Shown: positions 1-64,000 of the stretch, piece after piece
Layout: each line of letters begins with the position of its first letter
How positions within the stretch are numbered: the first letter of the stretch is position 1
Assembly (NCBI GenBank): GCA_041661345.1
Contig: JBAZUO010000001.1
Span: forward strand, 11,298-75,297
Source: Candidatus Omnitrophota bacterium
GTDB lineage: Bacteria > Omnitrophota > Gorgyraeia > 2-01-FULL-45-10
Direction: 5' to 3'
DNA: 64,000 bases
Notes under the pieces: model-generated
Told to the model about the DNA's origin: nothing
Database searches by the model: none
The model's input: only the letters and a program-made list of their open reading frames with translations
Made by a program: the position numbers and the translations under genes

Positions 1-672
<672 letters not shown>

Positions 673-3635: not shown

Positions 3636-3674
3636 TAGCCGACGTTTAAACGTCGGCTACATTGTGGATAACTT
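3636..3674 (+). repeat. R4 intercistronic hairpin element, copy 2
   Basis: GTAGCCGACGTTTAAACGTCGGCTAC is a perfect 12-bp-arm hairpin. It is followed by ATTGTGGATAACTT, and TGTGGATAA is the reverse complement of TTATCCACA. The layout relative to gene direction matches copy 1. Confidence 0.6.
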
Positions 3675-4324: not shown

Positions 4325-4385
4325 CGTGAAGTTTGCGTGCAAATTTCATCCTGAGGCTGCGACGAACAGGAGCAGCCGAAGGATC
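4325..4385. repeat. R3 double-hairpin element, copy 1
   Basis: CGTGAAGTTTGCGTGCAAATTTCATCCTGAGGCTGCGACGAACAGGAGCAGCCGAAGGAT aligns with 45406..45467 and shows compensatory changes. Confidence 0.6.
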
Positions 4386-35550: not shown

Positions 35551-35835
35551 CTTTATAAATTTTACGGGAGGCTGCCGCTCCCGCCCCTAGGCTTTTCAAG
35601 CTATTCGTAATATGCGATGCGTCGAGTGGCTCGCAGGGACGCTCGGTTTGCTCCGGCGGCAAACCTCACTCCGGGGAAAATTTTTCATGCCGCCGCTAGC
35701 TAACAACAGCGGACCAAGCCATAAAAAATTTTCAGGCCCTGCTCGCCACATCGCCACATCGCATCTTGGAGATATGGCTGAGCAGAAAAGCCTTCAGTCG
35801 CCCCTGCCGTAAAATTTCCTGCCCGCACTCCAGGT
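35551..35835. repeat. R1 repeat, rearranged copy D (outer helix of domain 1 enclosing an inverted domain 2)
   Basis: 35557..35597 and 35784..35815 match the two strands of the R1 domain-1 closing helix. 35609..35764 is the reverse complement of R1 domain 2. Confidence 0.7.
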
Positions 35836-36121
35836 AAAATTTTTCATTTCTTAGTATTGGCGGAACTTTTGCACAACGCGTTATTCTTCTATGGCCGCCC
35901 GGGGCAGTGGGGTTGAGCCGTGAAATTTTGCTAAGGTTTAACTTACTCCCCACATAAATTGACGAAACTGTAAGCAAAAGAACAAATATATACGAAATAA
36001 CTAAAACAAAACATAAGCATCCTGGAAGAGCAAAATTAGGCGAAGCCCCCTGCCCTGGGCGGCTAACAGCATGTTGAGACGGAGGACAAAAGTTCCGCCT
36101 ACTTGTTCAACATGAAAAATT
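35836..36121. repeat. R2 palindrome-ended repeat, copy 1 (inverted relative to copy 2)
   Basis: The 241-bp core 35859..36099 is bounded by perfect 13-bp inverted repeats GGCGGAACTTTTG / CAAAAGTTCCGCC. The flanks extend the imperfect inverted repeat. It aligns as the reverse complement of 56770..57057. Confidence 0.75.
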
Positions 36122-37081
36122 TTACCTACCCAGAACCTCTTCGATTTTCGCCAGGACCTTCTTCTCCACGTCCGCGAGCTTTCCCTCGATGACGCAGCCG
36201 GATGCCTTCGTGTGCCCGCCGCCGCCAAAAGAGGATGCGATCAGGTTCACATCGACATCGCTCTTGGAGCGAAAACTGATATTGATCTTTCCGTCCGGAT
36301 CCTCCCTGAAGATCACAGCCACCTTTACGTGATTTATCGACCTGGCATAGTTCACGAACCCTTCGCTCTTCGCGGGGGCAGTACCGGTATGCTGCATCAT
36401 CGGCCTCGTGATTTCGAGATACGCGACATCCCCTGCTTTATTAATCTTGATCGTAGCAAGCACCATTCCCAAAAATTTTATCTCATCAATAGTCTTTGTT
36501 TCATAGACGCTCTCCGAAACACGCGCAGGCTCCAGTCCATAACCGAGAAGCTCACCGGCGATCTCATGAGTTGCTCCAGAGGTGTTCTCATAATTAAAAG
36601 AGCCAGTATCGGTCAGGATCGCTATATAAAGGCAGAGCGCCGACTCTTTTGTAAGCGCTACACCCATCTCCTTAAAAAGCTTATAAACTATCTCACCCGC
36701 GGAACTGGCATTCGAATCAACCCAGTTCACACTGCCAAACTTCTCATTCGAGACATGATGATCGATATTGATAATGAATTTATCTTTTGTTATCACATCC
36801 TTGACCTTGCCTGTCCTTTTAAGGGTCGGGCAATCAAGTATGATCGCCGCGTCAAAATCCGGCCTCTTAGCGATGTCGTTCGAGACCTTGTTCGTTCCGG
36901 GTAAAAATCCGTAATGTTCCGGGATGGGATCGCTATCCAATATAAAGCTCTTCTTTCCAAGGCTGTCCAAAAGCTGCTTCATCGCAAGCTGGCTTCCTAG
37001 CGAATCACCCTCCAGGTTGATGTGCGCCGTTATCAGGAAGTTGTCATGTTTCTTTATGGCTTCAACTATCTGTTTCATCAA
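36122..37081 (-). CDS. nrnA: DHH/DHHA1 family phosphoesterase (NrnA-like oligoribonuclease / pAp phosphatase)
   Basis: 319 aa with the DHH motif (NIDHH) and DHHA1 GGGGH. Confidence 0.8.
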   Translation of the reverse strand: MMKQIVEAIKKHDNFLITAHINLEGDSLGSQLAMKQLLDSLGKKSFILDSDPIPEHYGFLPGTNKVSNDIAKRPDFDAAIILDCPTLKRTGKVKDVITKDKFIINIDHHVSNEKFGSVNWVDSNASSAGEIVYKLFKEMGVALTKESALCLYIAILTDTGSFNYENTSGATHEIAGELLGYGLEPARVSESVYETKTIDEIKFLGMVLATIKINKAGDVAYLEITRPMMQHTGTAPAKSEGFVNYARSINHVKVAVIFREDPDGKINISFRSKSDVDVNLIASSFGGGGHTKASGCVIEGKLADVEKKVLAKIEEVLGR

Positions 37082-37424
37082 CCTTCTCCTTTTTTATCTT
37101 GTCCAGTATATCGTAGATCTTCTTCGTATGCTCAAGCGATTCATCTATCTTAAAATCGATCTCCGGCGTGCACCTTAGCTTCACCCTGTCCGACACAAGC
37201 CCCTTTATGTAGCCCTTGGCGCTATTCAGCCCCTTCAGAGCCAGCCGTTTATCCTTGTCCTCTCCGAGAACACTGAAAAATACCTTTGCATATCTTAAGT
37301 CCGGCGTCACCTCAACCTTCGTTATAGTAATGAACCCGAGCCTCGGATCTTTTATTTCGCCCTGGACGATCCTCGAAATTTCCTGCCTCAATGCCTCCTG
37401 CACTCTCTCCGGCCTTGCGCTCAT
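37062..37424 (-). CDS. rbfA: ribosome-binding factor A
   Basis: 120 aa with RVQEALRQEISRIV, DPRLGFITITKVEVTPDLRYAKVF. Confidence 0.92.
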   Translation of the reverse strand: MSARPERVQEALRQEISRIVQGEIKDPRLGFITITKVEVTPDLRYAKVFFSVLGEDKDKRLALKGLNSAKGYIKGLVSDRVKLRCTPEIDFKIDESLEHTKKIYDILDKIKKEKVDETDS

Positions 37425-40039
37425 GCGTATATCCTTTCTATGAGTCGTTTCGTGTATATGATCTCTTCTTTCCGCGTCTTCAATTTACCGTCTATTTTGG
37501 CACACAGGACCCTATTAAGGATCACTTTATAATCCGGGCACGGTCTCAATCCCATGGCCTTGAGATCTTCGCCTCTCACGCTCGTCTTGACCCCGTTATA
37601 TTTGCGGTAAAAATCCCTCACCCTGGATTTCGCGGCCCTGGAAGCCGTACCCGCCATTATGAGCAATATCACTTCGAAAGATAGCGGCTCGAGTATCGTA
37701 TATGTACGACTTGGCTCGAGACTGCCGGAACCGGTGGCAAGCGCTTTCGTCACCCTGGCGGCATGTTTCTTATACGAAAGTATCCGAAGCCGCTCCCCTT
37801 TTCGGAACACGAACCTATCGCAGATCTTCGATACGTCATTATAGCTTAAATTCCCGAGCATCGCCATAAAGTATATGAGCCAAATATCGATTGCCCTCTT
37901 CTTGAAACTTGAATCGTTATACCAACGACAGGCTTCTTCGATGTTTTTATACAGCCTCACCATTTTTTCATTCAATTTAATGTTCGGATGCAGGAATCTG
38001 AGTTCGTCGAGTTGCGCCATTCTGCTTAAAGCCTTAAAAGGTTCATCTTCCTTTAATATAAGGATAATCTCATCACGGATACGCTGAGGCTCCACTTTGT
38101 CGAACATCTCTATCTTTATAGCATGCTTTACAAGATCCTCGGTATGGTTGTCGATCTTGAAACCGAATCTCTGCTCAAAACGCACAGCCCTGAAGATCCT
38201 GGTCGGATCATCTATGAAACTTGCGTCGTGCATTACCCTTATACGGGCGCTGGATAGGTCCCTCTCGCCCCCGAAAAAGTCTACCAGCTGGCCGAAGCTC
38301 GGCTTATTAAGGCTCACAGCCATCGCGTTTATCGTAAAGTCTCTGCGGACGAGATCGTCCTTTAGAGAGCTGAATTCGACTGTCGGCAAAGCAGCCGGCC
38401 TTTCGTACACCTCTTTCCTCGCCGTCGCAAGATCTATCTTAAGCCTGCCCTTGGTAACAACGGAACATGTTCCAAACCTTCTGTGAATTACCAGTGCGGC
38501 GTCTAATTTTTTCGCGATCACATGCCCCAATTTTATGGCATCCCCCTCGACAACTATGTCGAGATCGAGATTTTTGGCGCCCAGCATCAGATCCCTGACA
38601 AGCCCACCCACCACAAAGACGCTGTATCCGCGGGAATTGCCCTCACGGCCTATTTTCTTCAAAAGACCCATAATATCTTTCGGAAGTATCGCCGACATTT
38701 TTTTGGATATGTTAGATGTGATATTTTTCCTGACCTCTGACGGGACCGAGAAGGATGCGTCATAGACATTCTGCATGACCTTCGTCCTATTTATAACTCC
38801 TGCCAACCGCCGGCCCTTCAATACCGGGATAACACCGGCGTCTTCATCCATAACCGCCTTCTGGATGATATATAGAGGAGTCTGGGGCGTGACAGTTACG
38901 ACCCTGCCGGACATATATCCTTTTATCCGCGAGTGGCCAAAGCCGCGCTTTATGGCCTTATTCAACCCCTCGAGCGTTATCACACCTACGACCCTGCCCC
39001 TGACAATAACTGGCATTCCTCCAAGCCTCTCCTTCAATAAAATCTCTCTTGCATCATCAATTTTGACATTTGGGCTCATCGTCCTGACATTCCTCGACAT
39101 TATATCTTTTGCCCGGATATGTAATTTGATATTCTTCTCCAGAATATTTATAAGGGCGTTTCTGACAAAAGCGACATCTCTTCCGTGAACTTTCGCAGCA
39201 GCCGCGCCGGGATGGCCGCCTCCGCCGAAATGCGCCAGGATCTTATTCGCATCGACTGTGGGCACGGAACTGCGGCCAATTATATCTACCCTGTCATGCT
39301 GCGAACTTATCAGTACGAACAGGACCGGAATATTTTCTATCTCGGTCAATTTATGTATGATCGTCCCGAGTTCTCCGGTGTAGCTCTGGCTGTCTATCTC
39401 GGCGATCGATATACTGACACCTTTAATTTCGATCTTCTTTGTGATCGATATAAACTTCGTCAACAACGCAAGTTCGCCTTCCGACAGCTCCCTATTAAGA
39501 TAGCTTGAGACCATCGACAGGTTCGCGCCTTTAGAGAGAAGAAAACTGACCATATCAACATCAAGTTTAGTCGTCACCCTGTAAGTAAGGGATCCTGTCT
39601 CCTCGTATATCCCCAGAAGCATTATCGTGGCCTCGAGCGGAGTCACCCTGAAGCCCTTCCTCTTTATTATGTCCGCCAATATTGTGACCGTCGCGCCGAC
39701 CTCTTCGTAAATATCTTTATCCGCGACGATATCGTCTTTCGTTTTCGGGTGATGATCGTAGGCGTGAACCTCAACGCCCTTATCTATAAGCTCCGCGGCT
39801 ATGCCTATCCTGGACTTGTGGCGCGTGTCTACGAGAACGAGCCGCGTAACGTCATACAGCCGGCACTCGCGCTCCGATTCGAATACGACGAGCTCCTTCG
39901 CCAGGGAGAGAAACTCCCTCACGGCTTTCTCCTGCGATCCCGGAAGCATCAGCCGCGAGTTCGGATAGAGCTTCTTCGCCGCTACAAGTGATCCGAGCGC
40001 GTCAAAATCCGCGTTTATATGTGTCGTGATTAAATCCAT
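37421..40039 (-). CDS. DHH-DHHA1 / tandem CBS / poly(A) polymerase-CCA-adding nucleotidyltransferase fusion protein
   Basis: 872 aa. N-terminal DHH (HINADFDALGS, GGGGHPGAA), a CBS pair, then VVGGLVRDLMLGAKNLDLDIVVEG and RRDFTINAMA of the PolA/CCA head domain. Confidence 0.85.
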   Translation of the reverse strand: MDLITTHINADFDALGSLVAAKKLYPNSRLMLPGSQEKAVREFLSLAKELVVFESERECRLYDVTRLVLVDTRHKSRIGIAAELIDKGVEVHAYDHHPKTKDDIVADKDIYEEVGATVTILADIIKRKGFRVTPLEATIMLLGIYEETGSLTYRVTTKLDVDMVSFLLSKGANLSMVSSYLNRELSEGELALLTKFISITKKIEIKGVSISIAEIDSQSYTGELGTIIHKLTEIENIPVLFVLISSQHDRVDIIGRSSVPTVDANKILAHFGGGGHPGAAAAKVHGRDVAFVRNALINILEKNIKLHIRAKDIMSRNVRTMSPNVKIDDAREILLKERLGGMPVIVRGRVVGVITLEGLNKAIKRGFGHSRIKGYMSGRVVTVTPQTPLYIIQKAVMDEDAGVIPVLKGRRLAGVINRTKVMQNVYDASFSVPSEVRKNITSNISKKMSAILPKDIMGLLKKIGREGNSRGYSVFVVGGLVRDLMLGAKNLDLDIVVEGDAIKLGHVIAKKLDAALVIHRRFGTCSVVTKGRLKIDLATARKEVYERPAALPTVEFSSLKDDLVRRDFTINAMAVSLNKPSFGQLVDFFGGERDLSSARIRVMHDASFIDDPTRIFRAVRFEQRFGFKIDNHTEDLVKHAIKIEMFDKVEPQRIRDEIILILKEDEPFKALSRMAQLDELRFLHPNIKLNEKMVRLYKNIEEACRWYNDSSFKKRAIDIWLIYFMAMLGNLSYNDVSKICDRFVFRKGERLRILSYKKHAARVTKALATGSGSLEPSRTYTILEPLSFEVILLIMAGTASRAAKSRVRDFYRKYNGVKTSVRGEDLKAMGLRPCPDYKVILNRVLCAKIDGKLKTRKEEIIYTKRLIERIYA

Positions 40040-40050
40040 CTATCCTATCC

Positions 40051-40454
40051 TAATTTTTACGGGTCCTGCCGCGACCTCGTCTTTTCTTTTTAGGGCTCGC
40101 ACGGGGTTCACAATAGATGAGTGAAACTCATGTTGTGTCTGTATGCCCGCCAGGATTGCCTGCAACAGGACTATTATAATTAGGGCGCGGGCTTACTATT
40201 ATGCAATCCTAAGCGGCGGGCACCCCCATCCCATGCTCGCCTCAATCAAGAAAAGCCTTCAGTCGCGTCACCCGTAAAATTTCCTGTCTGCATATCCCAG
40301 TAAAATTTTTCGCATCGCCAAAAATGTGATGTGGCGATGTGGTTTGTGAGGGCCTTAAAATTGGCCGGCAGGGTCCGGACAATTTTACGCAAGCGCGATT
40401 TTTACATGGCTAAAAATCGCGCGTCCCGAACAAACCACTCGACACAGCACATTC
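40051..40454. repeat. R1 structured intergenic repeat, copy A
   Basis: Aligns block by block with 48901..49322 and 57074..57472. It fills the gap between the xerD stop and the start of the preceding fusion gene. Confidence 0.8.
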
Positions 40455-40478
40455 GGCTGCTGTATCGAAAAATTTTCC

Positions 40479-45408: not shown

Positions 45409-45467
45409 TGAAATTTGCGATAGCAAATTTCATCCCGAGATTGCGACGCATAGGAGCAATCGAGGGA
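45406..45467. repeat. R3 double-hairpin element, copy 2 (abuts the tRNA-Pro 5' end)
   Basis: CGTGAAATTTGCGATAGCAAATTTCATCCCGAGATTGCGACGCATAGGAGCAATCGAGGGAT. Confidence 0.6.
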
Positions 45468-45486
45468 TTAACTATTGCTAGTTAAC

Positions 45487-45912: not shown

Positions 45913-45975
45913 GCCCTACCCCCTTGGTTAGTCAAAATATATCACAATACGGTCCGCTTTTCAAATTTATTTGAT

Positions 45976-48472: not shown

Positions 48473-48889
48473 TTATGTTTTCCTCGCCTCTTTCTTATTT
48501 ATACTGTCCAATACGCCGTTGACGAACTTTCCGGAATCCTTATCACCATATCTCTTGGCGATATCGATCGCCTCATTTATTGAAACCTTCGGCGGTATCT
48601 CCTCCATGTAGAGAAGCTCATAGGTCGCGAACCTCAAAATATTTCTATCTATAACCGCCATTCTCTTGAGCTGCCAATTCGTCGTATGGCTCGATATTAG
48701 CTCATCGATCGCTTTACTGTTATTGGCCACACCCAGGACAAGTGCATCGGCAAATGTCTCGATCTCCCTATCAGCCTCGTCGTGGTTCTTCCAGAACGTG
48801 TCTATACATTTCTTAGGCTCGTCTCCTGTGATATCTATCGCGTACAGTATCTTCAACGCGCATTCCCGCGCCTTCGTCCGCTTTCGCAT
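48473..48889 (-). CDS. nusB: transcription antitermination factor NusB
   Basis: 138 aa with [26 protein letters not shown] and the EAIDIAKRY tail. SD AAGGAG at 48895..48900. Confidence 0.92.
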
Positions 48890-48900
48890 AACGTCTCCTT

Positions 48901-49322
48901 AGATTTTCCGGGTCCTGCCGCGACCTCGTCTTTTCTTTCTAGGGCTCGCATGGGGTTCACTATCAAGTAGTGTTATCCACGGTGTGTCTGTATGCCCACC
49001 AGGATTACCTCCGAGAACGACGTCCTATATAGCCATAGATTTGTGGGGATGTAATCCTAAACGGCGGGCACCCCTATCCCATGCTCGCCCATACGCGAAA
49101 AGTCCTCGGTCGCGTCACCCGTAAAATTTCCTGCCCACACCTCAGTAAAATTTTTCGATTCCTTCGATAATGTGATGTGACGATGTGGTGAGCAGGGCCT
49201 ACAATTTTTTATGGCTTGGTCCGCTGGCTAAAGGATAGCGGCGGCATAAAAAATTTTACGGAGCGAGGACTGCCGCTGGAGCAGTCCGAGCGTCCCTGCG
49301 AACCACTCGACACAGCACATTC
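48901..49322. repeat. R1 structured intergenic repeat, copy B
   Basis: Fills the ribH-nusB gap. It has the same block order as copies A and C, with divergent hairpin loops and a compensatory stem change. Confidence 0.8.
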
Positions 49323-49340
49323 TTGTAAAAACAAAAAATT

Positions 49341-49805
49341 TTATATTTTCTCGTAGAGATTCGCCATCTCGATCGCAGTCATTGCGGCGTCACGGCCTTT
49401 GTTGCCGTCCTTCGTGCCGGCCCTCTCGATCGCCTGCTCAAGATTATCAGCTGTTATAACACCAAATATACATGGAACGCCTGTATCCAGAGACGCTTTC
49501 GCGATCCCCTTGGCGGCTTCGCTCGCGACGAATTCGAAATGCGGCGTAGCGCCCCTTATAACCGTACCCAGGCATATCACACCGTCGTATTTCTTCGACT
49601 TGGCAAGCTTGAACGCAACCATCGGAATCTCAAACGAGCCCGGCACCCACATCACGTCCTGTGCGGAGTCCTGCGCGCCGTGCCTCACAAGTGTGTCGAT
49701 ACACCCGTCAAGAAGTTTCGACGATATGAATTCATTGAACCGCGATATAACTATCGCGAACTTCTTACCCTTTGCGGATAGATCCGCTTTCACCACATTT
49801 GCCAT
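49341..49805 (-). CDS. ribH: 6,7-dimethyl-8-ribityllumazine synthase
   Basis: 154 aa with [21 protein letters not shown] and [15 protein letters not shown]. Confidence 0.95.
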
Positions 49806-49809
49806 ATCA

Positions 49810-51006
49810 TTACCCTCCGATTTTATGCCCCAATTTCTCTTTTTTCACCTTAAGATACCTCTCATTGGCCTTATTCGGCCGGATTTCCAAAGGCACCCTC
49901 TCAACAATTTTAAGGCCGTATCCTTCCAGCCCAATAATCTTTTTCGGATTGTTGGTCAATAGCCTTATCTTTTTAAGTCCGAGGTCCACCAGTATTTGCG
50001 CGCCTATCCCATATTCTCTTAGATCGGGCTTAAACCCGAGGGCTTTATTCGCCTCGACCGTATCGAGCCCTTTATCCTGAAGTTCATAGGCCTTCAGTTT
50101 ATTCGCAAGGCCTATCCCCCGGCCCTCCTGTCTCATATATAGTATCACTCCGTTTCCATTGTCTTCGATAAGTTTCATCGCCGTATGCAGCTGCTCACCG
50201 CAATCACATCTTTTTGATCCAAATACGTCGCCCGTCAGGCATTCTGAGTGGACCCTGACAAGCGCATTGTTCTTATCAGGCCTTCCTTTAACAAGCGCCA
50301 GGTGGTGATACCCATCCGTCAATGACTCATAAACATGTACATTAAAGTTGCCAAATTCGGTAGGAATGATCGTTTTGGCGATTTTTTTGATCAGCCTCTC
50401 ACTCCGCCTCCTGTATTCTATTATGCCGGCTATTGTGCAGATCTTCAGCCCGTGCTCCCCGGAAAATGCCAGAAGGTCGTTCATGCGCGCCATCGAACCA
50501 TCATCCTTCATTATCTCGCAGATAACGCCTACCGGATTCACGCCGGCGAGTTTCATGAGGTCCACGCATGCCTCGGTATGGCCGGAGCGAACCAGGACGC
50601 CGCCGCTATTTGATCTCAGCGGAAATATGTGGCCCGGCCTGACTAAGTCCGCAGCCTTTGTCTTTGGATTCGCGAGAATATTTATCGTACGCGCCCTGTC
50701 ATGGGCGGATATGCCGGTTGTAATGCCGTGACCGGCGTCGCAGGATATCGCCCAACCCGTCCTGAATGGGTCGGGCATCTTCGCAGACATCGGGTGAAGG
50801 CCCAGCTCGTCAAGCCGCGAGCCTTCCATGGGAACGCATATGAGGCCGCGGCCCAGCCTCGCCATGAAATTTATGTCGGCTGGCTTTGTAAGTGAGCCCG
50901 CCATGATCAGGTCGCCCTCGTTTTCGCGATCTTCGTCGTCTACGACTATGACCATCTTGCCGAGCTTTATGTCCCTTAAGACCTCTTCTATCGTATTCAG
51001 CTTCAT
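49810..51006 (-). CDS. ribBA: bifunctional 3,4-dihydroxy-2-butanone-4-phosphate synthase / GTP cyclohydrolase II
   Basis: 398 aa with [11 protein letters not shown] (RibB) and [20 protein letters not shown] (RibA). Confidence 0.95.
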
Positions 51007-51057: not shown

Positions 51058-51091
51058 AGAAAAAATAAAACCCCGATGAATTACTTCGGGG
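51058..51091 (-). terminator. riboswitch expression-platform terminator
   Basis: The minus strand reads CCCCGAAGTAATTCATCGGGGTTTTATTTTTT, between the FMN aptamer and the ribBA start. Confidence 0.65.
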
Positions 51092-51127
51092 TCATATTTA
51101 CTTTAAACTGTTTACTAAACATCCAAT

Positions 51128-51252
51128 TTATCTTCTACCATCCAGACTTTACTGTCGGCACTTGAATCTCACAAGTTCAGCCTCAAAATTTTCTGAAGCT
51201 CGCGGGCTTTCACCGCCGGTCGAGGAATTTCACCTCACCCCGAAGAATGCTC
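51128..51252 (-). promoter_or_regulatory. FMN riboswitch (RFN element) aptamer
   Basis: The minus strand reads GCATTCTTCGGGGTGAGGTGAAATTCCTCGACCGGCGGTGAAAGCCCGCGAGC...GCCGACAGTAAAGTCTGGATGGTAGAAGA. This matches the conserved RFN core upstream of ribBA. Confidence 0.9.
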
Positions 51253-51254
51253 CC

Positions 51255-51282
51255 ATTATACATAATATTGGAATTTTGTCAA
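51255..51282 (-). promoter_or_regulatory. promoter of the riboswitch-ribBA unit (TTGACA-16 nt-TATAAT on the minus strand)
   Basis: Both hexamers are consensus: -35 at 51277..51282 and -10 at 51255..51260. Confidence 0.6.
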
Positions 51283-51329
51283 TAATTATGATATCCTTAT
51301 AATACGTTGTGCAAAACAAAGGAGGAAGT

Positions 51330-51821: not shown

Positions 51822-53021
51822 ATGGATAAAGACAAAGAAAAAAATCTTATCGTCGAGCTTGAACGGTTGAACTGGGAAATGTCCCTTCTTTATGAAGTTT
51901 CAAACGCAATGAGGACAACCCTCAAGCTCGACCACATCTTCTACATAATACTTACGGCACTCACTTCACACGAGGGGCTTGGTTTCAACCGCGCCATGAT
52001 GTTTCTCGTCAATGAAAAAGAAGGTGTGCTAGAAGGCGTTATGGGTATCGGCCCGCACACGGCTGAAGAAGCGGGAAAAATATGGCATGCTATATCGATA
52101 AGTAAGATGACGCTGGATGATTTCATAGCGTCATACGATACATTCAAAAAAGATCCCGAGTCAAAGCTCAATTCTATCGTGAAGGGCATAAAAATACCCT
52201 TAAGGGAAGACATGGGCATATTGGCCCTGACGATATTGGAAGGCATGCCTTTCGAAATCACAACACACGAAGCAAAAAAGCTGGTAGACCAGGAGACCCA
52301 GAAAACACTGAATACCGACTTCTTCGTAACGGTGCCGGTAAAAGCAAAAGACAAGGTGCTCGGGGCCCTGCTCGTCGATAACATATTCAACAAAAAAAAT
52401 ATAACTAAGGGCGATGTCAAGATGCTTACAATGTTCGCAAACCACGCGGGCCTTGCTATAGAGAATTCAAGGTTGTATGAGGAAACCGTATACCTTTCCA
52501 ATATAGACTGGCTGACCAAATTATGGAATTACGGCAGATTTCAACGGCACTTGACGCTTGAACTTGAGAGGGCCAAGGTTCACGAATCGAACGTAAGCCT
52601 CGTCATGGTGGATGTGGATAATTTCAAAAATTACAACGATACGTTCGGACACATCAGGGGCGACTCCGCGCTAAAAGAGATCGCCGCGATACTTCAGTCC
52701 AAATCACGCAAATTCGATACTGTAGCCAGATATGGCGGCGAGGAGTTTGCCATCATAATGCCGAATACGACGAAAGAGAACGCGAGATTATTCGCTGAAA
52801 GGCTAAGGGGCGAGGTCGAAAAAGTCTATGCAGAAGAGGCTGGACTCCATCCTGATAAAAGGCTTACGATAAGCTGCGGCATAGCCACCTGCCCTGAAGA
52901 CACCACAGCAAAGGAAGACCTTGTAGCCATGGCCGATACGGCCTTATATGAAGCAAAGGGCGCCGGTAAAAACAGGTCATGCATCTATTTAAAAGCTATG
53001 GGGAATAAAAAGACGACTTAA
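51822..53021 (+). CDS. GAF domain-containing diguanylate cyclase (GGDEF)
   Basis: 399 aa. The N-terminal half is GAF-like. The C-terminal half has DVDNFKNYNDTFGH and RYGGEEFAIIMP (GGEEF active site). Confidence 0.88.
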   Translation: MDKDKEKNLIVELERLNWEMSLLYEVSNAMRTTLKLDHIFYIILTALTSHEGLGFNRAMMFLVNEKEGVLEGVMGIGPHTAEEAGKIWHAISISKMTLDDFIASYDTFKKDPESKLNSIVKGIKIPLREDMGILALTILEGMPFEITTHEAKKLVDQETQKTLNTDFFVTVPVKAKDKVLGALLVDNIFNKKNITKGDVKMLTMFANHAGLAIENSRLYEETVYLSNIDWLTKLWNYGRFQRHLTLELERAKVHESNVSLVMVDVDNFKNYNDTFGHIRGDSALKEIAAILQSKSRKFDTVARYGGEEFAIIMPNTTKENARLFAERLRGEVEKVYAEEAGLHPDKRLTISCGIATCPEDTTAKEDLVAMADTALYEAKGAGKNRSCIYLKAMGNKKTT

Positions 53022-56769: not shown

Positions 56770-57057
56770 GAAATTTTTCGTGTTTAGCATAGAGGCGGAA
56801 CTTTTGCCATTAGCCTTAACATGCTGTTAGCCACCCGGAGCAGGGGGCTTCGCCTAATTTTGCTTTTCCAGGATGTTTACGTTTTATTTTAGTTATTTTG
56901 TATATATTTGTTATTTTGTTAATTAAGTAGTCAATATACTTTAGGTATTAGGTAAACCATAGCAAAATCTAACGGCTCAACCCCACTGCCCCGGGTGGCT
57001 GTATAAGAATAACGTGGTGTACAAAAGTTCCGCCGATGCTAAGAAGCGAAAAATTTC
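56770..57057. repeat. R2 palindrome-ended repeat, copy 2
   Basis: The 241-bp core 56794..57034 is bounded by GGCGGAACTTTTG / CAAAAGTTCCGCC. The extended imperfect inverted repeats are GAAATTTTTCGTGTTTAGCATAGA / GATGCTAAGAAGCGAAAAATTTC. Confidence 0.75.
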
Positions 57058-57073: not shown

Positions 57074-57472
57074 AAATTTTACGGGTCCTGCCGCTTCCTC
57101 GGCTTTTCTTTCCAGGGCTCGCACGGGGTTCACAATAGATTAAGGTAAATCACTTGTTGTGTCTGCATGCCCGCCAGGATTGCCTACAACTGGACTATTA
57201 AACTGGGTCGCGGGCTTACTATTATGCAATCCTAAACGGCGGGCACCCCCATCCCATGCTCGCCCATAATCGAAAAGCCTTCAGTCGCGTCACCCGTAAA
57301 ATTTTTCATCTCGCAGAAATGTGATGTGGCGATGTGGTGAGCAGGGCCTTAAAATTTTTTATGGATTGGTCCGCTGGCGAAATCAAGTAGCGGCATAAAA
57401 AATTTTACTGGAGCGAGGGCCGCCGCTGGAGAGGCCCGAGCGTCCCTGCGAACCACTCGACACAGCACATTC
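57074..57472. repeat. R1 structured intergenic repeat, copy C
   Basis: Closest to copy A in domain 1 and to copy B in domain 2. It lies between R2 copy 2 and the giant-2 terminator. Confidence 0.8.
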
Positions 57473-57477
57473 TTTCT

Positions 57478-57552
57478 AAAATAAAACCCGAGAAACGGCT
57501 CTATTCAACGACCGACGCTAGTAAGTCATTGAAGGGCGTTCCGTCTCCCGGG
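57478..57552 (-). terminator. candidate terminator of giant ORF 2
   Basis: On the minus strand, CCCGGGAGACGG...CCGTTTCTCGGG forms a long stem with an inner stem, followed by TTTTATTTT. Confidence 0.5.
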
Positions 57553-57567
57553 CAAATACAACTTTTA

Positions 57568-60500
57568 TTATAACGACTTCATCGCCGCCTCTTCGGCTGT
57601 AACAAATTCTCTCATATGGCCGTTAATATCCTCTTCCTTTATCGGAGGCAATATTATCTCAATATCTCCTTTTTTTAATCTCTCCATAAAATCATTCATG
57701 GTCAATTTACTTAACTCTTGATCTTTATATGATATGGAAGATAAAAGGTTAATCACCTTGGCATAATAAGCCGGGTCTTTATTAACATTGAGCTCCAGGA
57801 TTCCCAATCCCAGTGCTATGTGCCCACCTATCGAAAGATATCCGGAGCGATTGTTGCCCCCATCCCTGGCAACATCCCTTACTGTAAAATACTGTTTGGC
57901 TATATCCTCATAAGCTTCAACTTTTTCATTTGTATTTCCGTCAATATAGATTACCGTATTCTTGCCGGTAAGCACGCCTTCAGTATTAGTATAGATTTTA
58001 TCTCTTAATTGCTCAAGAGTTCCATCATAGAACGTAACCGTTATGTTACCTATTCTAAATTGTTTGTTAAGCCCATTTCTGATTGCCGTCCAACTGCTTT
58101 GAACTTTGTTCTGTAACGCGCCGTTGGCTAAATTACAGAGTCTAGGAGATAAGCTTGGTATAAATAAATAAACTGGCTTGTCCGGTACGTTTGTGGACTT
58201 CAGAAGCTCCTTAGCATTTTTCATTACACCGACAACATATTTTACTGTTTCGAGAATGTCTATTGCCCTGGCATCACCTGCTGCGAGTCCTTTGATGACT
58301 TCTCTCAGGTTCTTCATGTTTGCGTCTTTGGCAAATTCACTGTCGCGTCCAACAATTTCGTCAAATTTTTCTAGTGGATCAATCGCCTTTGAGGCCGGCG
58401 CAACTTCCTGCCCTTTTTGATATATTTGCAGCAATTCTGCTAATGGCATTTCAAAACGCGCTATCGCAGCATCGTTTATGCCCGCATACGAAACCACGGT
58501 CTGAACTCCCTTAACATTAATTACAGCAGTTGCTGTTTCGTAAACAACGCCGCCTACATCACCTCCTCGCAATAGATCGGCTTGAGGCTGCGGCAATTCG
58601 ACAGGCCTTCCAGAAAATTCTAATCTTTTACTAGCCGGGTTATAATGCAAGATAGCCACTGCGGTTACGTATTTTTTCTTATCCGCGCCCTCTATCGATT
58701 TTGCTTTATGCGTGAACGCGAGATACACATCCTTTCCCCTCTCCGGCAATGCGCAGATAATGGTGTTAAAACCTATGTGGTGAACATCCCCTCCCGGACT
58801 CATGATAGTCGAATTGAATACAGTATGATCATCATCCTTCCAATATTGCGCATCTTTATCGGCACACGCTTCAAACGCCTTATCCAGGCTATCGAACATA
58901 TAAACCTGTATTGCTGATTTTTTATTGGGTTCATCAGCCCTGTCAATTACGGCAACTCTTCCGTTTTCCAACTGAACTATATACGCATTTTTACTATTTA
59001 CGGTAGGATTTCCCAACCTGCGGATTTCTGTTTCTCTGGTCCCATCCTCGTTCAGATATACAAAATAGGTATGCCATTCTGATCCGTTATTATCAGGCAT
59101 CGTAAATGTCATGGCCCAACTTTCGCCGATCTTCATTATCCTCGGATCTTCGGCGCCTTCGACAAAAACCTCCTTTTCGGCAATAAGCTCAGTCTCTGTC
59201 ATGCCGGGATTAAGTCTCACTATATCCGATTTATGCGGCTTGCTCGTGTCGGTGTTTTTAGAAACGCGCCGCGCGTAATGACAAATTACATTTCCGCCCA
59301 CCTCTAATGTAGCAGGATTGAAATATTTATATTCTTTATCGCTTGGGATCATGAGCGTCCCGTCCCTGGTTTTAGCAGCTTGTTCTATATCAGTAACCGG
59401 CGCAGCATGGCTAACGATATAATCGCGTAAAATATCAGGATTCATACCAACAAGCGCTTCACGATTATCGATACGGTATATACCGGTATTGGGCTCGCTT
59501 GTCGTACCGGGATACAGCACAGCTGGTATCTCACCCGAGGCCTTCGCGATCTCCGTACTGTCCGGCGGTTCCGTGACAAAAATAGTACCCGTATCAGAGA
59601 TAGAAAATAGGTGCCGAAGGGCCAGATAATTCATCAGGTCATCTATGGTAGTTGCCTGGCTTCTATTCCTATTTTCATTTATAATTTTCTGATAATACCG
59701 CATTGGATATAGCACATTCCTGAAAAATATGAACTGTGGGGCCTGTCCAGCATTGCCTAGTATATTTTGGATGTTTTTCCCATCAAAAACATTTATATTA
59801 CAGAGGTAGATATCAACCTTCAACTTACCCCTTAACGACGATAACGTTTTGGTAAACTCGTGGTCCTCGATTTTGTTTTCAGCCTTTGGAATATTTTCCA
59901 GCCTGGGATCCATTACGTAAACGGATATTGCCCAATCGGCGGGGTTCTCGCCGACTTCCTGCAATTGTGTGTGCAGAGCCCCGAGCGTTCGGAGGATTTC
60001 GAGAGGCCTTTTACCTGTGCCTACAAAACATAACGTAATCTTTTTTTCGGATATCGCGCTGTTCTTTTTCCCGATGATATATTCCTTGAACCTCCCTTTC
60101 ACGTCCGCCAACTGAGGAAATAAGCTTTGTCTCCTATCGTTATCGCCATACGCGACAGAGTCATTGCCTACATGATATGTAAGAACTCTCTCGACAGTAT
60201 TGTTCAATGTGTCTTCCGGATAACCAAGCCCGGAGATCTCTTCCTTAAGAGATGCCCGCAGTGAATCCATATCAGATGCCTGCAGCTGTCGGAGAATATG
60301 TATTTTAAAGTCATCCCTGCTTAGCTTGTTGGCCGGCGCAATGGCCGCGGCCGGTTTTTCGTTATGCATAGCAGCACCATCTATGATGCTCTGGCGCAGA
60401 GTAACAACACCGGGCGTAAGGCTAGCGCCCTCTATCGGACTGACACCTCTCGCCTCGGTTGGGAAAGCCGCCATGCCGCGGTATTCGCCCTCCATATTCC

Positions 60501-63500
60501 TACCCATGCCATATAGTTGCGTAACTACTCCGTTCTGCCTGCTCATATACAAAGCAGCTATTGACAAGAATATGTCGTGCGCGGTAGATTCATATTCCTG
60601 GCCGTACCTATCTACGAATAGCTTTACATATTTACTCAAGTTATCGATTAAATCGCCGTCGGAGCCCCATTGCCTGGCCCCTTCCTCGCCGATCAAGATT
60701 CTCAAAGCATTTCTTAGAACTCGTTTCCTGTATGCTAATCGCAGACCCTCCTCGTTCTGCGGCCCTCTTTCGGATATATTATTTACTTTAACTGTATCCG
60801 ACACGGTATAGATCTTGCTAAAATCGATAAGCTTCACATTCCCATCAGGCATGACAAGAAAATTTTCCAGGTTATCTATGTCATTATCCACATAGCTATC
60901 GCCCATTTGCGCTGAATCGAGCAAAAACGCCGCACCCAGTATTATCTGTGCCGCGATATGAAGCATCCTCGCGCCGCTTGTGTTCCAATCTTCTACATTG
61001 TCCGTCAATGTTTTAAGATCTGCCACGTTCGGCACGAATCTGTCTATCTCGACGACGTCTTCTCTGCGCCCATATTTAATCCTGAACACTGCTATATTAT
61101 CCGCAAAATACGGATTATTCTTTGTAGCCGAAATGATCTTATTGAGTCTATTTTCGGCCTGGGCTGTACGCCGGGAAAGAATATCTTCGGATACATTCTC
61201 CTCGCCTGGCCTTTCCGGGGTTATTATCTTCACAACGGCATCTTCTCTACCCGAAACGGCGCCTCTGGCGATCATCGCAAGCCCGTCCGCGCCCCTGCCG
61301 ACAAATTTCGTTATAACCGCGTGTTTCAAAACTTCCGGATTGGCACAGGCATTCAGTATCCTGAATACGCCGTTATAGACAAAGTGCTCTCTTACCTTAC
61401 GGCTCATCTTTTGTTTCGATGCCGCCGACCGTTCTACGACGATTTCCTTCTTGCGGCATTGTATCAGCCAGTTAAGTACGCTATTCCTTGCCATATCGAT
61501 GGGCCTTATTCCGAAGAAATCGCAGACCGCCCTTATATTTAACAGCCAACCCTGCCTGTCTGTATTTTTCAACTGCCTGAATACATTCCATATCTGTTCA
61601 ATATATTTAGCTGCCTCTTCCGGCTCACCTGATTCCGCGGCCTTCCGCCATTCTTCCAGTAACCCCCAGGTACTGCCCGGCTCTTTTTTTGATGCCTCGA
61701 CCTTGTCTTTTAGATCATCCCACTCTTTTCCGGCAAGGCCGACCGATTTCAGGATTTCGTATTCTATCGCAGGAGTGGGTATGGCGGAAGGGGCATTCAT
61801 TTCGGTACCCGCCAATAGCCCGCCGAGCTTCCCACTGTTTCCAAACCCCGCTACCGCCTCTTCTGTCAGATAAAATTTCGAGACATCGCTTGCGATCGCA
61901 TGAAGCCTCTGCAATATCAGGACAAGATCGCTTGAGTCAAGATGCCTTTCCTGGCCCTTTGCTATACCCTTCTCCTTTTCTTTATCGATATAATTCCGCA
62001 GATTCTCTTTCGTCAGGCAACTCTGAATGAACTTTTCGAATTTGGCCGATAAATAATCACCTTGCGACCTGGTTATCGCGATAAAACTATCTCTTATAAC
62101 CACAATATCATCTTCTGTCAGGTTGTCGAGATCGCTCGCGTTCTTACGCATATCCGTAAGTATCCCTGCTATCGTCCTGCTGAACCCGCGCTCCATATGG
62201 GCGAGCCTATATTCGTCGTAGGCTTTCTTGATGATTTTTTTGAATTCAGCCCGCGCCGCCGCAACACCTCTTTCTATAAGCATATTCTGCACATGCCTGG
62301 CATAGTAATGCGCTTCATCCTCTGATATACCCTGGCTTCGCAAACCTATCTCTACAATTTCATGCAAAATATCGCTGACTATAAGCCTTGCCTCATGCGT
62401 CAGCTGGTCGATATTAACGGCATTGGTGAAACCGAGCCTTCTCAATTGTTCCAGCCTGTTTCTCGGAAATACTATTTTGCGGACACCATTATGCATTATT
62501 ATTGCGGCACCGAGCCTGCCCCCCTCCGACGTAATACGCTTTTCTCCAACATCCATCAAAAGAATCCTATTTTCAAATCCGCTTACTATATCGCCGCCAA
62601 AACCCATCGGTGCCAAAAGTTCGAGTATTTTCCGAATATCCTCCTTATCCTCCGGCGTATGTTTGCTATTAAGCGCAGCTACCAATCTATCCAGATTCTT
62701 CGGCGCAAGCTCGTCCTTCGCTTTTAGTCTTCCGGCCGTCGCCTCCATCTTATCCGCAGCCTCTCTCACCGCCTCCAGCAACTCTTCACCTTCGTGCGCG
62801 GCGCCTTCGACAACTCCCGGCTTCGCCACGGTGACTGCTACGGATGGCGCTGCAGTGGCAGTTATATCGGCCAGCTCTTGCCTACGCTGACTCTCTGTCA
62901 TCTTCTCAAGAGACCTGAGATATTCCAGGACGCCCACCTTTTTCTTATTTACAATGAAGGACATAAAATATTGGTTCAATTCAATGCCTAAACGATCACA
63001 TATAGCGCTGATCTCTTCCGCTTCTTTGCCACCCAATTTTTCATCGATACCCGCGGCTCCGGCTCCGTAGCGCGTCTCTGCCTCCGGTGATGACATTCGA
63101 TTAAGAACTCTTATTGCAACCAGAACGTTTTCCTGCGCTTTCTGGGTAAGGCCGATCAAATCCCCCTTCACAGCTTCTTCATCATACAGACCGGTCTTTA
63201 TATTCAACATCAGGCTTATTCTTGTGCATTCTTCATCCAATCCATTAAAAGCGATGGCTCTATCGATATCACAATTCAGGATATTTCCATCCTCACCCAC
63301 AGTTGCCCAGACTATGATATCTTCGCCGATAACTTTACCGCTATTGCGTACACCGTTCATTTTATTGATATTATTATAGACAATCTGAAATGACGCAATT
63401 GCCGCCTTCCCATGGCTATATGCCGAATATATATCGGTTATGGTCGTGTCTATCGGAACCATGGAATCACTTTCGCGGTCTTTCCGCTCAGCCTTAACCG

Positions 63501-63984: not shown

Positions 63985-64000
63985 GTTGTGCAGGGCCTCC

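What the first reader, a model, noticed from the sequence alone, without database searches (positions are those of the whole stretch)
48901..49322. R1 copy B splits the riboflavin/nusB gene string and abuts the nusB ribosome-binding site
The gene order on the minus strand is FMN riboswitch-ribBA-ribH-[R1 copy B]-nusB-PHP-ribD-ribE. The 422-nt element starts 18 nt after the ribH stop and ends exactly at the nusB SD (AAGGAG, 48895..48900). Copies A and D end about 11 nt and about 5 nt from the start codons of their downstream genes. The only unpaired substitution in the main hairpin of copy B (TGCCCACC versus GGCGGGCA) would be a G-U wobble only in the minus, gene-sense RNA. This hints that R1 is co-transcribed as a large structured intercistronic leader. 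It raises the question of whether ribD and ribE remain under FMN control.
Basis: partly seen in the sequence, partly recalled or inferred. Interest (0 to 1): 0.6.

Follow-up and report, generated by a model that had tools for sequence, protein, structure and literature searches.

The report
Mobile hairpin repeat splitting rib operon
The 440-base block between ribH and nusB is a non-coding, hairpin-forming mobile repeat of Omnitrophota bacteria that landed in the ribH stop codon and rebuilt both the stop and the nusB ribosome-binding site, so it is an ordinary kind of element in an undescribed family, not a dedicated riboflavin regulator.

Summary
The gene string (FMN riboswitch, ribBA, ribH, R1, nusB, PHP, ribD, ribE) and the repeat are real. 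R1 copy B is not a single 422-nt unit starting 18 nt after ribH. It is a 439-bp insertion (49340..48902, minus strand) flush with the ribH stop codon.

It is a mosaic of three palindromic modules (D1, a 24-nt "mini", D2), each ending in AAATTTT-type inverted termini.

The closest relatives (NusB 91% identical) have the same gene order with only 12 nt between ribH and nusB: ATA-TAA-GGAG. In the window TA(A) is duplicated on both sides of R1. That regenerates the TAA stop on the left and the TAAGGAG ribosome-binding site on the right.

D1 occurs in many Omnitrophota genomes and metagenomes. It usually lies in gene-sense orientation, often flush with a stop codon, after unrelated housekeeping genes. 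Copies cluster by genome. Its three-way-junction fold shows strong compensatory change, but G-U and A-C exceptions are equally frequent, so no RNA strand is favoured.

No terminator or promoter is predicted inside R1, so passive co-transcription under FMN control is the default.

Best reading: an undescribed MITE-like mosaic repeat family. No transposase was found. An RNA-level role is not excluded.

The parts
49341..49343 (-). ribH stop codon TAA, which is the left copy of the duplicated target TA(A)
   Evidence: The empty site in L152/L153 reads ATA-TAA-GGAG. The window reads ATA-TAA-[insert]-TAA-GGAG.
49145..49340 (-). Module D1. Left terminus 49340..49323, P1 5' arm 49322..49294, variable hairpins P2 and P3, P1 3' arm 49197..49169, right terminus ATCGAAGGAATCGAAAAATTTTAC 49168..49145. 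Forms a three-way junction.
   Evidence: Homologous copies occur in 18 Omnitrophota genome loci and 35 metagenome loci.
49121..49144 (-). 'Mini' module TGAGGTGTGGGCAGGAAATTTTAC. It is the tail that usually follows D1. It is absent from the 57k copy.
48902..49120 (-). Module D2, a long imperfect hairpin (GGGTGACGCGACC ... GGTCGCGGCAGGACCCGGAAAATC).
   Evidence: D2 also occurs without D1 in L141, L118 and L128.
48895..48901 (-). Right copy of the TAA duplication (48901..48899), overlapping the nusB Shine-Dalgarno AAGGAG (48900..48895). The nusB ATG is at 48889..48887.
48473..48889 (-). nusB, the gene downstream of the insertion
   Evidence: Pfam PF01029. A 100% identical protein, P0001, is annotated as Candidatus Omnitrophota.
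49341..49805 (-). ribH (lumazine synthase), the gene upstream of the insertion. It is 154 aa, as in all relatives.
   Evidence: Pfam PF00885.
51060..51282 (-). Control region of the operon: consensus promoter 51282..51255, FMN aptamer 51251..51126, and an intrinsic terminator at about 51093..51060
40051..40476 (-). R1 copy at 40k: short-type D1 (40454..40323), mini, D2 (40285..40051). It lies between a xerD-like gene (stop TAG plus 2 nt) and a DHH-CBS-PolyA_pol gene (ATG 12 nt after the end).
57074..57486 (-). R1 copy at 57k: long-type D1 (57472..57318) plus D2 (57304..57074), with no mini. It starts about 95 nt after the stop of the 2143-aa ORF.
56770..57057 (-). Module D3, the third palindromic family, with the same AAATTTTTCG / CGAAAAATTT termini and an AT-rich centre. 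It lies upstream of smc.
   Evidence: (I1).
35557..36121 (+). Rearranged cluster between the nrnA-like gene and truB: D2 3' remnant, D1 inverted relative to the genes (35612..35764, plus strand), D2 5' part with mini, and D3 (35837..36121). The terminus of D3 is flush with the nrnA-like stop TAA (36124..36122).

Best explanation
R1 copy B is a non-autonomous, MITE-like mobile insertion. It belongs to a previously undescribed family of mosaic palindromic repeats in Candidatus Omnitrophota.

Shown:
- It is a 439-bp insert made of three modules (D1, mini, D2). Each module is a long imperfect hairpin bounded by AAATTTT(N)CG-type inverted termini.
- It sits in the TA(A) of the ancestral ribH-stop/nusB-SD overlap (TAAGGAG), and that TA(A) is duplicated on both sides.
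- The first A of the element completes the ribH stop. The right-hand TA(A) plus the flank restores the SD.
- The closest relatives lack the insert.
- Copies are multi-copy, cluster by genome, and are often flush with stop codons of unrelated genes.

Inferred:
- The modules are moved in trans by a transposase that recognises the shared termini. A 2-bp TA duplication would point to an IS630/Tc1-mariner-like enzyme.
- In these compact operons the TA of a stop codon is one of the few harmless targets, which explains the stop-codon and SD abutment.
- Copy B is passively co-transcribed with the FMN-controlled operon as about 440 nt of very stable hairpin RNA. This abolishes ribH-nusB translational coupling, and nusB initiates at the regenerated SD.
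- The long duplexes could be RNase III substrates or 3'-exonuclease blocks, as in Correia and REP elements.
For: - Empty site. L152/L153 (NusB 91% identical) keep the same seven-gene order and have a 12-nt spacer...GAGAAGATATAAGGAGAGCTTTTAATG. The window has ...GAGAAAATA[TAA]AATTTT...AAAATC[TAA]GGAGACGTTATG.
- A second filled/empty pair lies between ribE and the 111-aa gene: filled in L154, empty in the window and in L152.
- Termini. AAATTTTTCG occurs 6 times in the window against 0.75 expected, always at module ends. D1, D2 and D3 share these termini.
- The 2-bp flanks of D1 copies are mostly TA/TA, plus TG/TG in L118 and CG/CG in L060.
- Spread. D1 is found in 18 Omnitrophota genome loci and 35 metagenome loci. 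There are four copies in this 64-kb window. Neighbours are diverse housekeeping genes.
- Copies cluster by genome: 95-98% within LacPavin and within fen_1320, against about 75% between orthologous sites.
- Decayed, truncated and nested copies exist.
- The window is otherwise compact, with gaps mostly under 30 nt. The large gaps are the repeat loci.
- No terminator or promoter is predicted on the minus strand in R1. The SD is unpaired in the MFE fold.
- There is no Rfam match.
- The features match the published definition of bacterial MITEs: TIRs, TA at the termini, TSD, and stem-loop transcripts (PMC2229807).
Against: - No transposase or autonomous element with matching ends was found in about 370 kb of fetched Omnitrophota sequence.
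- The composite is larger (439 bp) than classical bacterial MITEs.
- The duplication length is ambiguous: TA or TAA here, and an apparent ATAAGGA repeat in L158.
- A DDE transposase needs only the termini. Yet the 29-nt P1 arms are almost invariant across genomes whose NusB proteins are only about 75% identical. Their mismatches are conserved, and P2/P3 show strong compensatory change (17 pairs against 6.1 in shuffles).
- Orientation is biased to gene sense (21:7). The ribH|nusB, xerD 3' and nrnA|truB sites are occupied in several lineages. This could mean selection for a function rather than neutral hitch-hiking.
Confidence: 0.7

Rival explanations
1. R1, or its D1 core, is a selected cis-acting structured RNA. 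It would be co-transcribed in gene sense as an intercistronic or 3'-UTR element, for example an RNase III/E processing site, a stability element or a protein-binding platform. It would tune expression of the flanking genes and would have spread, or been retained, because of that function.
For: - Gene-sense bias is 21:7, and about 20 copies are flush with stop codons against about 2 in antisense.
- The three-way junction is conserved, with 98% of cells paired and 17 compensatory pairs.
- P1 is nearly invariant, with conserved internal mismatches, across diverged genomes.
- The same intergenic sites are occupied in several lineages.
- No terminator or promoter is predicted inside the element.
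Against: - It is absent from the closest relatives, which have an otherwise identical operon.
- It is found after unrelated genes.
- Degenerate and truncated copies are tolerated, including one lacking both P1 arms.
- G-U and A-C exceptions are equally frequent, so neither RNA strand is favoured.
- The antisense strand actually folds about 5 kcal/mol better in 38 of 39 copies.
- There is no Rfam family.
Confidence: 0.15
2. The modules are hairpin elements moved or maintained as single-stranded DNA, in the manner of REPIN/RAYT, IS200/IS605-PATE or attC sites. Their orientation bias would reflect the replication strand rather than transcription. Precise, seamless excision would explain the empty site.
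For: - Watson-Crick-only compensation with G-U equal to A-C fits a DNA-level hairpin.
- Asymmetric mismatches and a bulge are conserved in P1, as in folded recombination sites.
- There is orientation bias in a window where 30 of 35 ORFs share one strand.
- A GTAG precedes P1 in many copies (CAGTAGAATGTG).
- The empty site in L152 is scar-free.
Against: - The flanking TA(A) direct repeat and the 10-13-bp terminal inverted repeats are not features of REP/RAYT or IS200/IS605 elements (my own knowledge, and PMC2229807).
- GTAG is not conserved; copy B has ACAAGAATGTG.
- No Y1/HUH transposase or integrase-associated array was seen. The neighbours are housekeeping genes.
- No attC-type GTTRRRY core sites are present.
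Confidence: 0.1
3. R1 functionally splits the operon. Its hairpins would terminate transcription after ribH, and a promoter in or near R1 would drive nusB-PHP-ribD-ribE independently of FMN.
For: The hairpins are very stable (-167 kcal/mol, z = -5) and could pause or terminate RNA polymerase. AAAATTTT tracts flank the stems.
Against: - No hairpin-plus-T-run and no sigma-70-like site is found on the minus strand in 48700-49500. Canonical signals are clearly used by this organism at the riboswitch.
- The other R1 copies show no consistent signals either.
- The relatives' 12-nt spacer shows that the ancestral unit was a single operon.
Confidence: 0.05

Closest known systems
Correia / NEMIS elements of Neisseria (bacterial MITE)
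   Same: They are non-coding and multi-copy, with terminal inverted repeats and TA at the termini with target duplication. They lie in intergenic positions close to genes. They are co-transcribed as long stem-loops, which RNase III can cleave (PMC2229807; PMC10969869).
   Different: Correia elements are 100-155 bp single hairpins with 24-26-bp TIRs. Here the units are 150-290 bp, mosaic (439 bp in copy B), share only 10-13-bp termini, and D1 is a three-way junction with compensatory change. There is no sequence similarity. RNase III cleavage was not tested here.
RUP of Streptococcus pneumoniae (IS630-Spn1-mobilised MITE)
   Same: It inserts at a TA dinucleotide, is a small non-coding palindromic repeat, and is presumed to be mobilised in trans (PMC2229807).
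   Different: RUP has a known cognate IS with matching TIRs. No cognate IS was found for the Omnitrophota modules, and whether the duplication is 2 or 3 bp is unresolved.
BOX elements (pneumococcus) and BIMEs (E. coli REP mosaics)
   Same: They have a modular, mosaic build from a small set of hairpin-forming units, with variable module content between copies. They are intergenic and transcribed (PMC3049150 and PMC2817692 abstracts; details from my own knowledge).
   Different: The modules, termini and host phylum are different. REP/BIMEs are linked to RAYT transposases and make no target duplication.
CIR repeats of Caulobacter/Brucella, and bcr1 of the Bacillus cereus group
   Same: These are repeats whose predicted RNA has more than one arm, or phylogenetically conserved structure with compensatory changes. 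They have been discussed as MITE-like with a possible RNA role (CIR: PMC2229807; bcr1: my own knowledge).
   Different: They are unrelated in sequence. Neither is reported to sit preferentially flush with stop codons.

Membership tests
Bacterial MITE (as defined in PMC2229807) | Small non-coding unit with no transposase gene | tested here: met
   The modules are about 150-290 bp and the composite is 439 bp. Only short spurious ORFs overlap it. The neighbouring genes are housekeeping.
Bacterial MITE (as defined in PMC2229807) | Terminal inverted repeats, A+T-rich termini with TA | tested here: met
   The (T)AAATTTTTCG ... CGAAAAATTT(A) termini are shared by D1, D2 and D3. The motif occurs 6 times against 0.75 expected.
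Bacterial MITE (as defined in PMC2229807) | Target-site duplication shown by a filled versus empty site | tested here: met
   TA(A) flanks copy B, and also the inserts in L154 and L127. A single TAA is present in the empty L152/L153 site. The length is not settled (2 or 3 bp), and L158 shows a longer apparent repeat.
Bacterial MITE (as defined in PMC2229807) | Many copies, with presence/absence polymorphism between related genomes | tested here: met
Bacterial MITE (as defined in PMC2229807) | Cognate autonomous IS with matching ends | tested here: inconclusive
   None was found among terminus pairs or Pfam-scanned neighbours in about 370 kb.
IS630/Tc1-mariner-derived MITE | Strict TA target duplication, and TIRs matching an IS630-family element | tested here: inconclusive
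   TA/TA flanks are seen in most D1 copies, but also TG/TG, CG/CG and non-matching flanks. A TIR comparison with IS630 members was not possible with these tools.
REP / REPIN-RAYT | No target duplication; a conserved GTAG next to a short palindrome; an associated RAYT gene | tested here: not met
   A flanking duplication is present. GTAG is present in many copies but not conserved. No Y1 transposase was seen among the scanned ORFs, but not every ORF was scanned.
Gene-specific cis-regulatory RNA leader (riboswitch or attenuator type) | A fixed association with one gene family, conserved in relatives; strand-specific covariation with G-U tolerated and A-C not | tested here: not met
   It is absent from the closest relatives and follows unrelated genes. 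G-U equals A-C. There is no Rfam hit.
Intrinsic terminator / promoter cassette | A GC-rich hairpin followed by a T-run, or -35/-10 hexamers, on the gene strand | tested here: not met
   One search finds none on the minus strand. The positive controls in the same operon are found.
Integron attC site | R''/R' core sites (GTTRRRY), a cassette array, and an integrase | tested here: not met
   Reading the sequence shows no such cores. The flanking genes are conserved housekeeping operons.

The most novel reading that the evidence does not exclude
D1 would be more than selfish DNA. It would be a phylum-wide, about 200-nt three-way-junction element whose nearly invariant P1 arms (with conserved mismatches and a bulge) and covarying P2/P3 hairpins are kept by selection. 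It would have been co-opted in Omnitrophota as operon 'punctuation', placed in sense orientation immediately after stop codons. There it would act as a processing or stability signal, or as a protein-binding platform, for polycistronic mRNAs. An alternative form of the same reading is that it is the folded substrate of a new, stop-codon-targeting, strand-specific transposition system.
Probability: 0.15. Interest if true: 0.65.

Novelty: new member of a known kind. Interest (0 to 1): 0.35.

Why it matters
It explains the odd 450-nt gap in an otherwise tightly packed riboflavin/nusB operon. The explanation does not need a new regulatory RNA: a mobile hairpin repeat landed in the one dinucleotide where it could rebuild both the upstream stop codon and the downstream ribosome-binding site.

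It also documents an apparently undescribed family of mosaic palindromic repeats in Candidatus Omnitrophota, an uncultured phylum with compact genomes. I found no Rfam family and no paper in the held library.

Annotators should mask these elements rather than call them ORFs or sRNAs.

The family gives natural 'with and without' pairs, such as the window against L152. These can be used to measure what 440 nt of stable hairpin does to translational coupling and to riboswitch control of distal genes.

Tried and rejected
- **Rfam.** A gathering-threshold scan of the whole window and permissive E-value scans of all four repeat loci gave only the FMN riboswitch, tRNA-Pro and sub-threshold noise (tsr24, rli33, CrcZ).
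- **BLAST and pattern scans.** Copy B had no match in the plasmid or phage collections. The D1 core pattern had no match in viral contigs.
- **Literature.** Searches for Omnitrophota/Omnitrophica repeats or structured RNAs returned no papers.
- **Exact-protein look-up.** RibH is not on record.
- **Transposase hunt.** I paired AAATTTTNCG / CGNAAAATTT termini 1-3 kb apart and Pfam-scanned the enclosed or adjacent ORFs. All were housekeeping genes.
- **Strand tests.** G-U versus A-C counts were balanced. The MFE comparison favoured the antisense strand by about 5 kcal/mol. I discounted this because it comes from the shared conserved purine-purine mismatches, not from independent changes.
- **Ideas considered and dropped:**
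  - Integron attC site: no core sites, and the neighbours are housekeeping genes.
  - IS200/IS605-PATE: TIRs and a flanking duplication are present.
  - SECIS-like or recoding signal after the stop codon: the stop is mostly TAA, and the element follows unrelated genes.
  - Hammerhead or other self-cleaving ribozyme: no Rfam hit and no core motifs.
  - Bidirectional terminator: no T-run directly after a GC-rich stem.
- **Corrected error.** I first guessed that ORF 37421-40039 was infB. Pfam shows it is a DHH-DHHA1-CBS-PolyA_pol fusion.
- **Wasteful scan.** The first genome-wide pattern (17 specified bases) was too loose. Most of its 116 hits were chance matches in high-GC genomes. Only the 18 Omnitrophota loci were real.

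Full report
**1. What is at the coordinates**

Rfam finds an FMN riboswitch at 51251..51126 (minus strand, 104.6 bits) and a tRNA-Pro. Pfam identifies the following minus-strand ORFs:
- ribBA, 51006..49810
- ribH, 49805..49341
- nusB, 48889..48473
- a PHP-domain protein
- ribD
- ribE

The 451-nt ribH-nusB gap holds a sequence repeated elsewhere in the window. Copies lie at about 40.05-40.48k and 57.07-57.49k in the same orientation. A rearranged, partly inverted copy lies at 35.56-36.12k.

The gap RNA folds very stably on both strands (-167 and -159 kcal/mol, z about -5).

NusB is 100% identical to a protein annotated from a Candidatus Omnitrophota MAG (P0001). The window is 46.6% G+C.

**2. 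R1 is a mosaic, not one element**

BLAST of copy B against loci fetched with a conserved motif showed that only its 5' (gene-sense) half is widespread. I call the parts as follows (coordinates):
- D1: 49340..49145
- mini: 49144..49121
- D2: 49120..48902

D1 has a 29-nt 5' arm (GAATGTGCTGTGTCGAGTGGTTCGCAGGG) that pairs with a 3' arm (CCCTGCTCACCACATCG(C/T)CACATCACATT). The pairing has conserved mismatches and one bulge. It encloses two variable hairpins, P2 and P3.

The whole unit is bracketed by (T)AAATTTTTCGAT... and ...ATCGAAAAATTT(TA).

D1 comes in a short type and a long type. The window has three long-type copies and one short-type copy.

D2 is a second long hairpin. It has the same kind of ends and also occurs alone in other contigs.

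A third module, D3 (56770..57057 and 35837..36121), has the same AAATTTTTCG / CGAAAAATTT ends. This decamer occurs 6 times in the window against 0.75 expected, always at module ends.

**3. Distribution**

A genome-collection scan gave 116 hits. Most were chance matches in high-GC genomes, but 18 were true D1 copies, and all 18 were in Candidatus Omnitrophota MAGs. A stricter pattern found 35 metagenome contigs.

No match was found in viral contigs, plasmids or phages. There is no Rfam family. No paper was found in the held library.

Copies cluster by genome: 95-97% identity within the LacPavin MAG, 96-98% within fen_1320, and 88% within the window.

**4. Structure conservation**

I aligned 18 long-type D1 copies (alignment A2). 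RNAalifold predicts a three-way junction of 50 pairs, and 17 of these pairs show compensatory changes.

The pair count with controls gives:
- 98.0% of cells paired, against 91.6% in shuffles
- 17 pairs changed on both sides, against 6.1 +/- 1.5 in shuffles (0 of 500 shuffles reach 17)
- 1-4 such pairs when the partners are slid by one to three columns

The fold is therefore maintained. It does not reveal a strand:
- Columns with G-U exceptions and with A-C exceptions are equal in long D1 (7 v 7), in short D1 (3 v 3), and nearly so in D2 (5 v 4).
- The antisense RNA of D1 folds about 5 kcal/mol better in 38 of 39 copies. This comes from the shared conserved mismatches, which are purine-purine in antisense (including a tandem G-A) and pyrimidine-pyrimidine in sense. 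I do not treat it as independent evidence.

**5. The decisive comparison: filled and empty sites**

I fetched contigs that encode close NusB homologues.

L152 and L153 (NusB 91% identical) carry ribBA-ribH-nusB-PHP-ribD-ribE-111aa in the same order. Only 12 nt separate ribH and nusB...GAGAAGATA TAA GGAGAGCTTTTA ATG.

The window reads ...GAGAAAATA TAA [AATTTTTTG ... CCCGGAAAATC] TAA GGAGACGTT ATG.

R1 is therefore a 439-bp insertion flanked by a duplicated TA(A):
- The left copy is the ribH stop codon. If the duplication is TA, the first A of the element completes the stop.
- The right copy, with the flank, re-creates TAAGGAG, the nusB SD.

This fully explains why the element 'ends exactly at the SD'. 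It also shows that the element starts at the stop codon, not 18 nt after it.

RibH is 154 aa in every lineage examined, so the insertion did not alter the protein.

The same site in other lineages:

| Locus | State of the ribH/nusB site |
|---|---|
| L154 (LacPavin MAG, NusB 88%) | D1 + mini + a shortened D2, TAA on both sides |
| L127 | D1 + mini only, TAA on both sides |
| L158 (NusB 75%) | short-type D1 + mini + a different module (D4) |
| L155 (NusB 80%) | an unrelated AAAATTTT-ended insert |
| L156 | an unrelated 60-nt spacer |

A second filled/empty pair lies between ribE and the 111-aa gene. It is filled in L154, with a D1 that has lost both P1 arms plus a full D2. It is empty in the window and in L152.

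The site is thus either an insertion hot spot or an old insertion that was later lost precisely. Because D1 copies at orthologous sites resemble their own genome's copies more than each other, I favour repeated insertion or within-genome homogenisation.

**6. Position and orientation**

I scored 54 D1 hits with a simple longest-ORF gene model. The upstream neighbour is co-directional in 31 cases and opposite in 16. Where both neighbours are co-directional with each other, the element is sense in 21 cases and antisense in 7 (the ORF model is crude and miscalls at least L127).

In 16 of these hits the P1 arm starts 16-21 nt after the stop codon. That means the terminus AAATTTTTCG... is flush with TAA or TGA. 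Adding L154, L127, the xerD-adjacent copy of L158 and the 40k copy of the window brings the total to about 20.

Only two antisense flush cases were seen: L150, and the D3 end at the nrnA-like stop codon in the window.

The upstream genes are unrelated to one another. They include ribH, a xerD-like gene, an nrnA-like gene, argH-neighbouring genes and aroC/aroK-neighbouring genes.

The window is otherwise very compact, with most gaps between -36 and +30 nt. My reading is as follows:
- A TA-preferring insertion has few harmless targets in such operons.
- The TA of a stop codon is one of them, because the element begins with A.
- The residual sense bias is unexplained. It could reflect RNA-level selection, or a replication-strand effect; 30 of 35 ORFs here share one strand.

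**7. Consequences for the operon**

The riboswitch is preceded by a 12/12 consensus promoter (51282..51255). It is followed by a textbook hairpin-plus-T-run terminator at about 51093..51060. FMN control therefore works by transcription attenuation and extends to whatever is co-transcribed.

The same scan finds no terminator-like or promoter-like site on the minus strand anywhere in 48700-49500. It finds nothing consistent in the other R1 copies.

The 12-nt spacer in relatives shows that the seven genes were ancestrally one tightly coupled unit. By default nusB-PHP-ribD-ribE remain FMN-controlled. They would now sit behind 439 nt of hairpin RNA, which must abolish ribH-nusB translational coupling. 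The SD itself is unpaired in the MFE fold. These steps are inferred, not shown.

**8. Comparison with known systems**

The features shown here match the published description of bacterial MITEs (PMC2229807):
- non-coding units
- A+T-rich inverted termini with TA
- a target duplication
- many copies
- filled/empty polymorphism
- stem-loop transcripts

Correia elements are the closest functional analogue. They duplicate TA, are co-transcribed and are cleaved by RNase III. RUP is the analogue for TA-targeted mobilisation in trans by IS630. BOX elements and BIMEs are the analogues for mosaic architecture.

The differences are these:
- The units here are larger.
- D1 is a three-way junction with covariation.
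- At least four module families share the same termini.
- There is a marked stop-codon and sense preference.
- No cognate transposase has been identified.

**9. Verdict**

The 'leader' interpretation is only partly supported. The element is best read as a new family within a known kind, the MITE-like mosaic palindromic repeats. A minority possibility remains that the conserved D1 fold has an RNA-level or ssDNA-level role.

Noticed in passing
window 4393-25434 (minus) and 57568-63999 (minus, open at the window end): There are two giant ORFs, of 7013 aa and at least 2143 aa. I did not characterise them. The R1 copy at 57k follows the second one.
   Followed up: no
window 4339-4384 and 45423-45468: A 46-nt hairpin-forming direct repeat (83% identical, GCAAATTTCATCC..GGCTGC..GCAGCC..). 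One copy lies just after the stop of the 7013-aa ORF and the other lies next to tRNA-Pro. It is a different family from R1.
   Followed up: no
window 56770-57057 (minus) and 35837-36121 (plus): Module D3 is a third palindromic repeat (295 nt, 81% identical). It has the same AAATTTTTCG/CGAAAAATTT ends and an AT-rich centre containing weak promoter-like hexamers. At 57k it lies directly upstream of smc. At 35k its end is flush with the nrnA-like stop codon.
   Followed up: partly
L158 about 9730-9990 and about 19110-19370; L051 about 1180-1300: A fourth module family, D4 (GAAAATTTTCGCTTCGTCAGGTGGCAGAACTTTCGGGTGC...), follows D1 in other Omnitrophota genomes. Its first 35 nt or so resemble the start of D3.
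   Followed up: partly
D1 right flanks in L121, L137, L139, L134, L144, L122 and L154, and window 49144-49121: The 20-25 nt after the right terminus of D1 (the 'mini') often contain a CTGGTGA / GACTGG-like motif. D1 is therefore asymmetric and extends past its inverted repeat. The meaning is unknown.
   Followed up: partly
D1 P1 stem, for example window 49322-49294 with 49197-49169: The conserved P1 mismatches are pyrimidine-pyrimidine in gene sense and purine-purine in antisense, including a tandem G-A/A-G. This makes the antisense RNA about 5 kcal/mol more stable in 38 of 39 copies. It is unexplained.
   Followed up: partly
window 650-658, 3663-3671, 13817-13825, 52613-52621, 60884-60892: There are five perfect DnaA-box nonamers (TTATCCACA) against 0.31 expected. 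Two are intergenic, near the window start. A possible link to a replication origin was not examined.
   Followed up: no
window 51255-51303: Two back-to-back near-consensus sigma-70 promoters (12/12 on the minus strand, 11/12 on the plus strand) lie between the rib operon and the divergent 161-aa/GGDEF genes.
   Followed up: partly
window 37421-40039 (minus): An 872-aa ORF combines DHH, DHHA1, CBS and PolyA_pol head domains. This is an unusual fusion. In L158 a 229-aa PolyA_pol gene occupies the corresponding place.
   Followed up: no
L154 3790-4259: A decayed D1 that lacks both P1 arms but keeps P2/P3, followed by a full D2, is inserted between ribE and the 111-aa gene in the LacPavin MAG. The site is empty in the window (45913-45975) and in L152.
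   Followed up: partly
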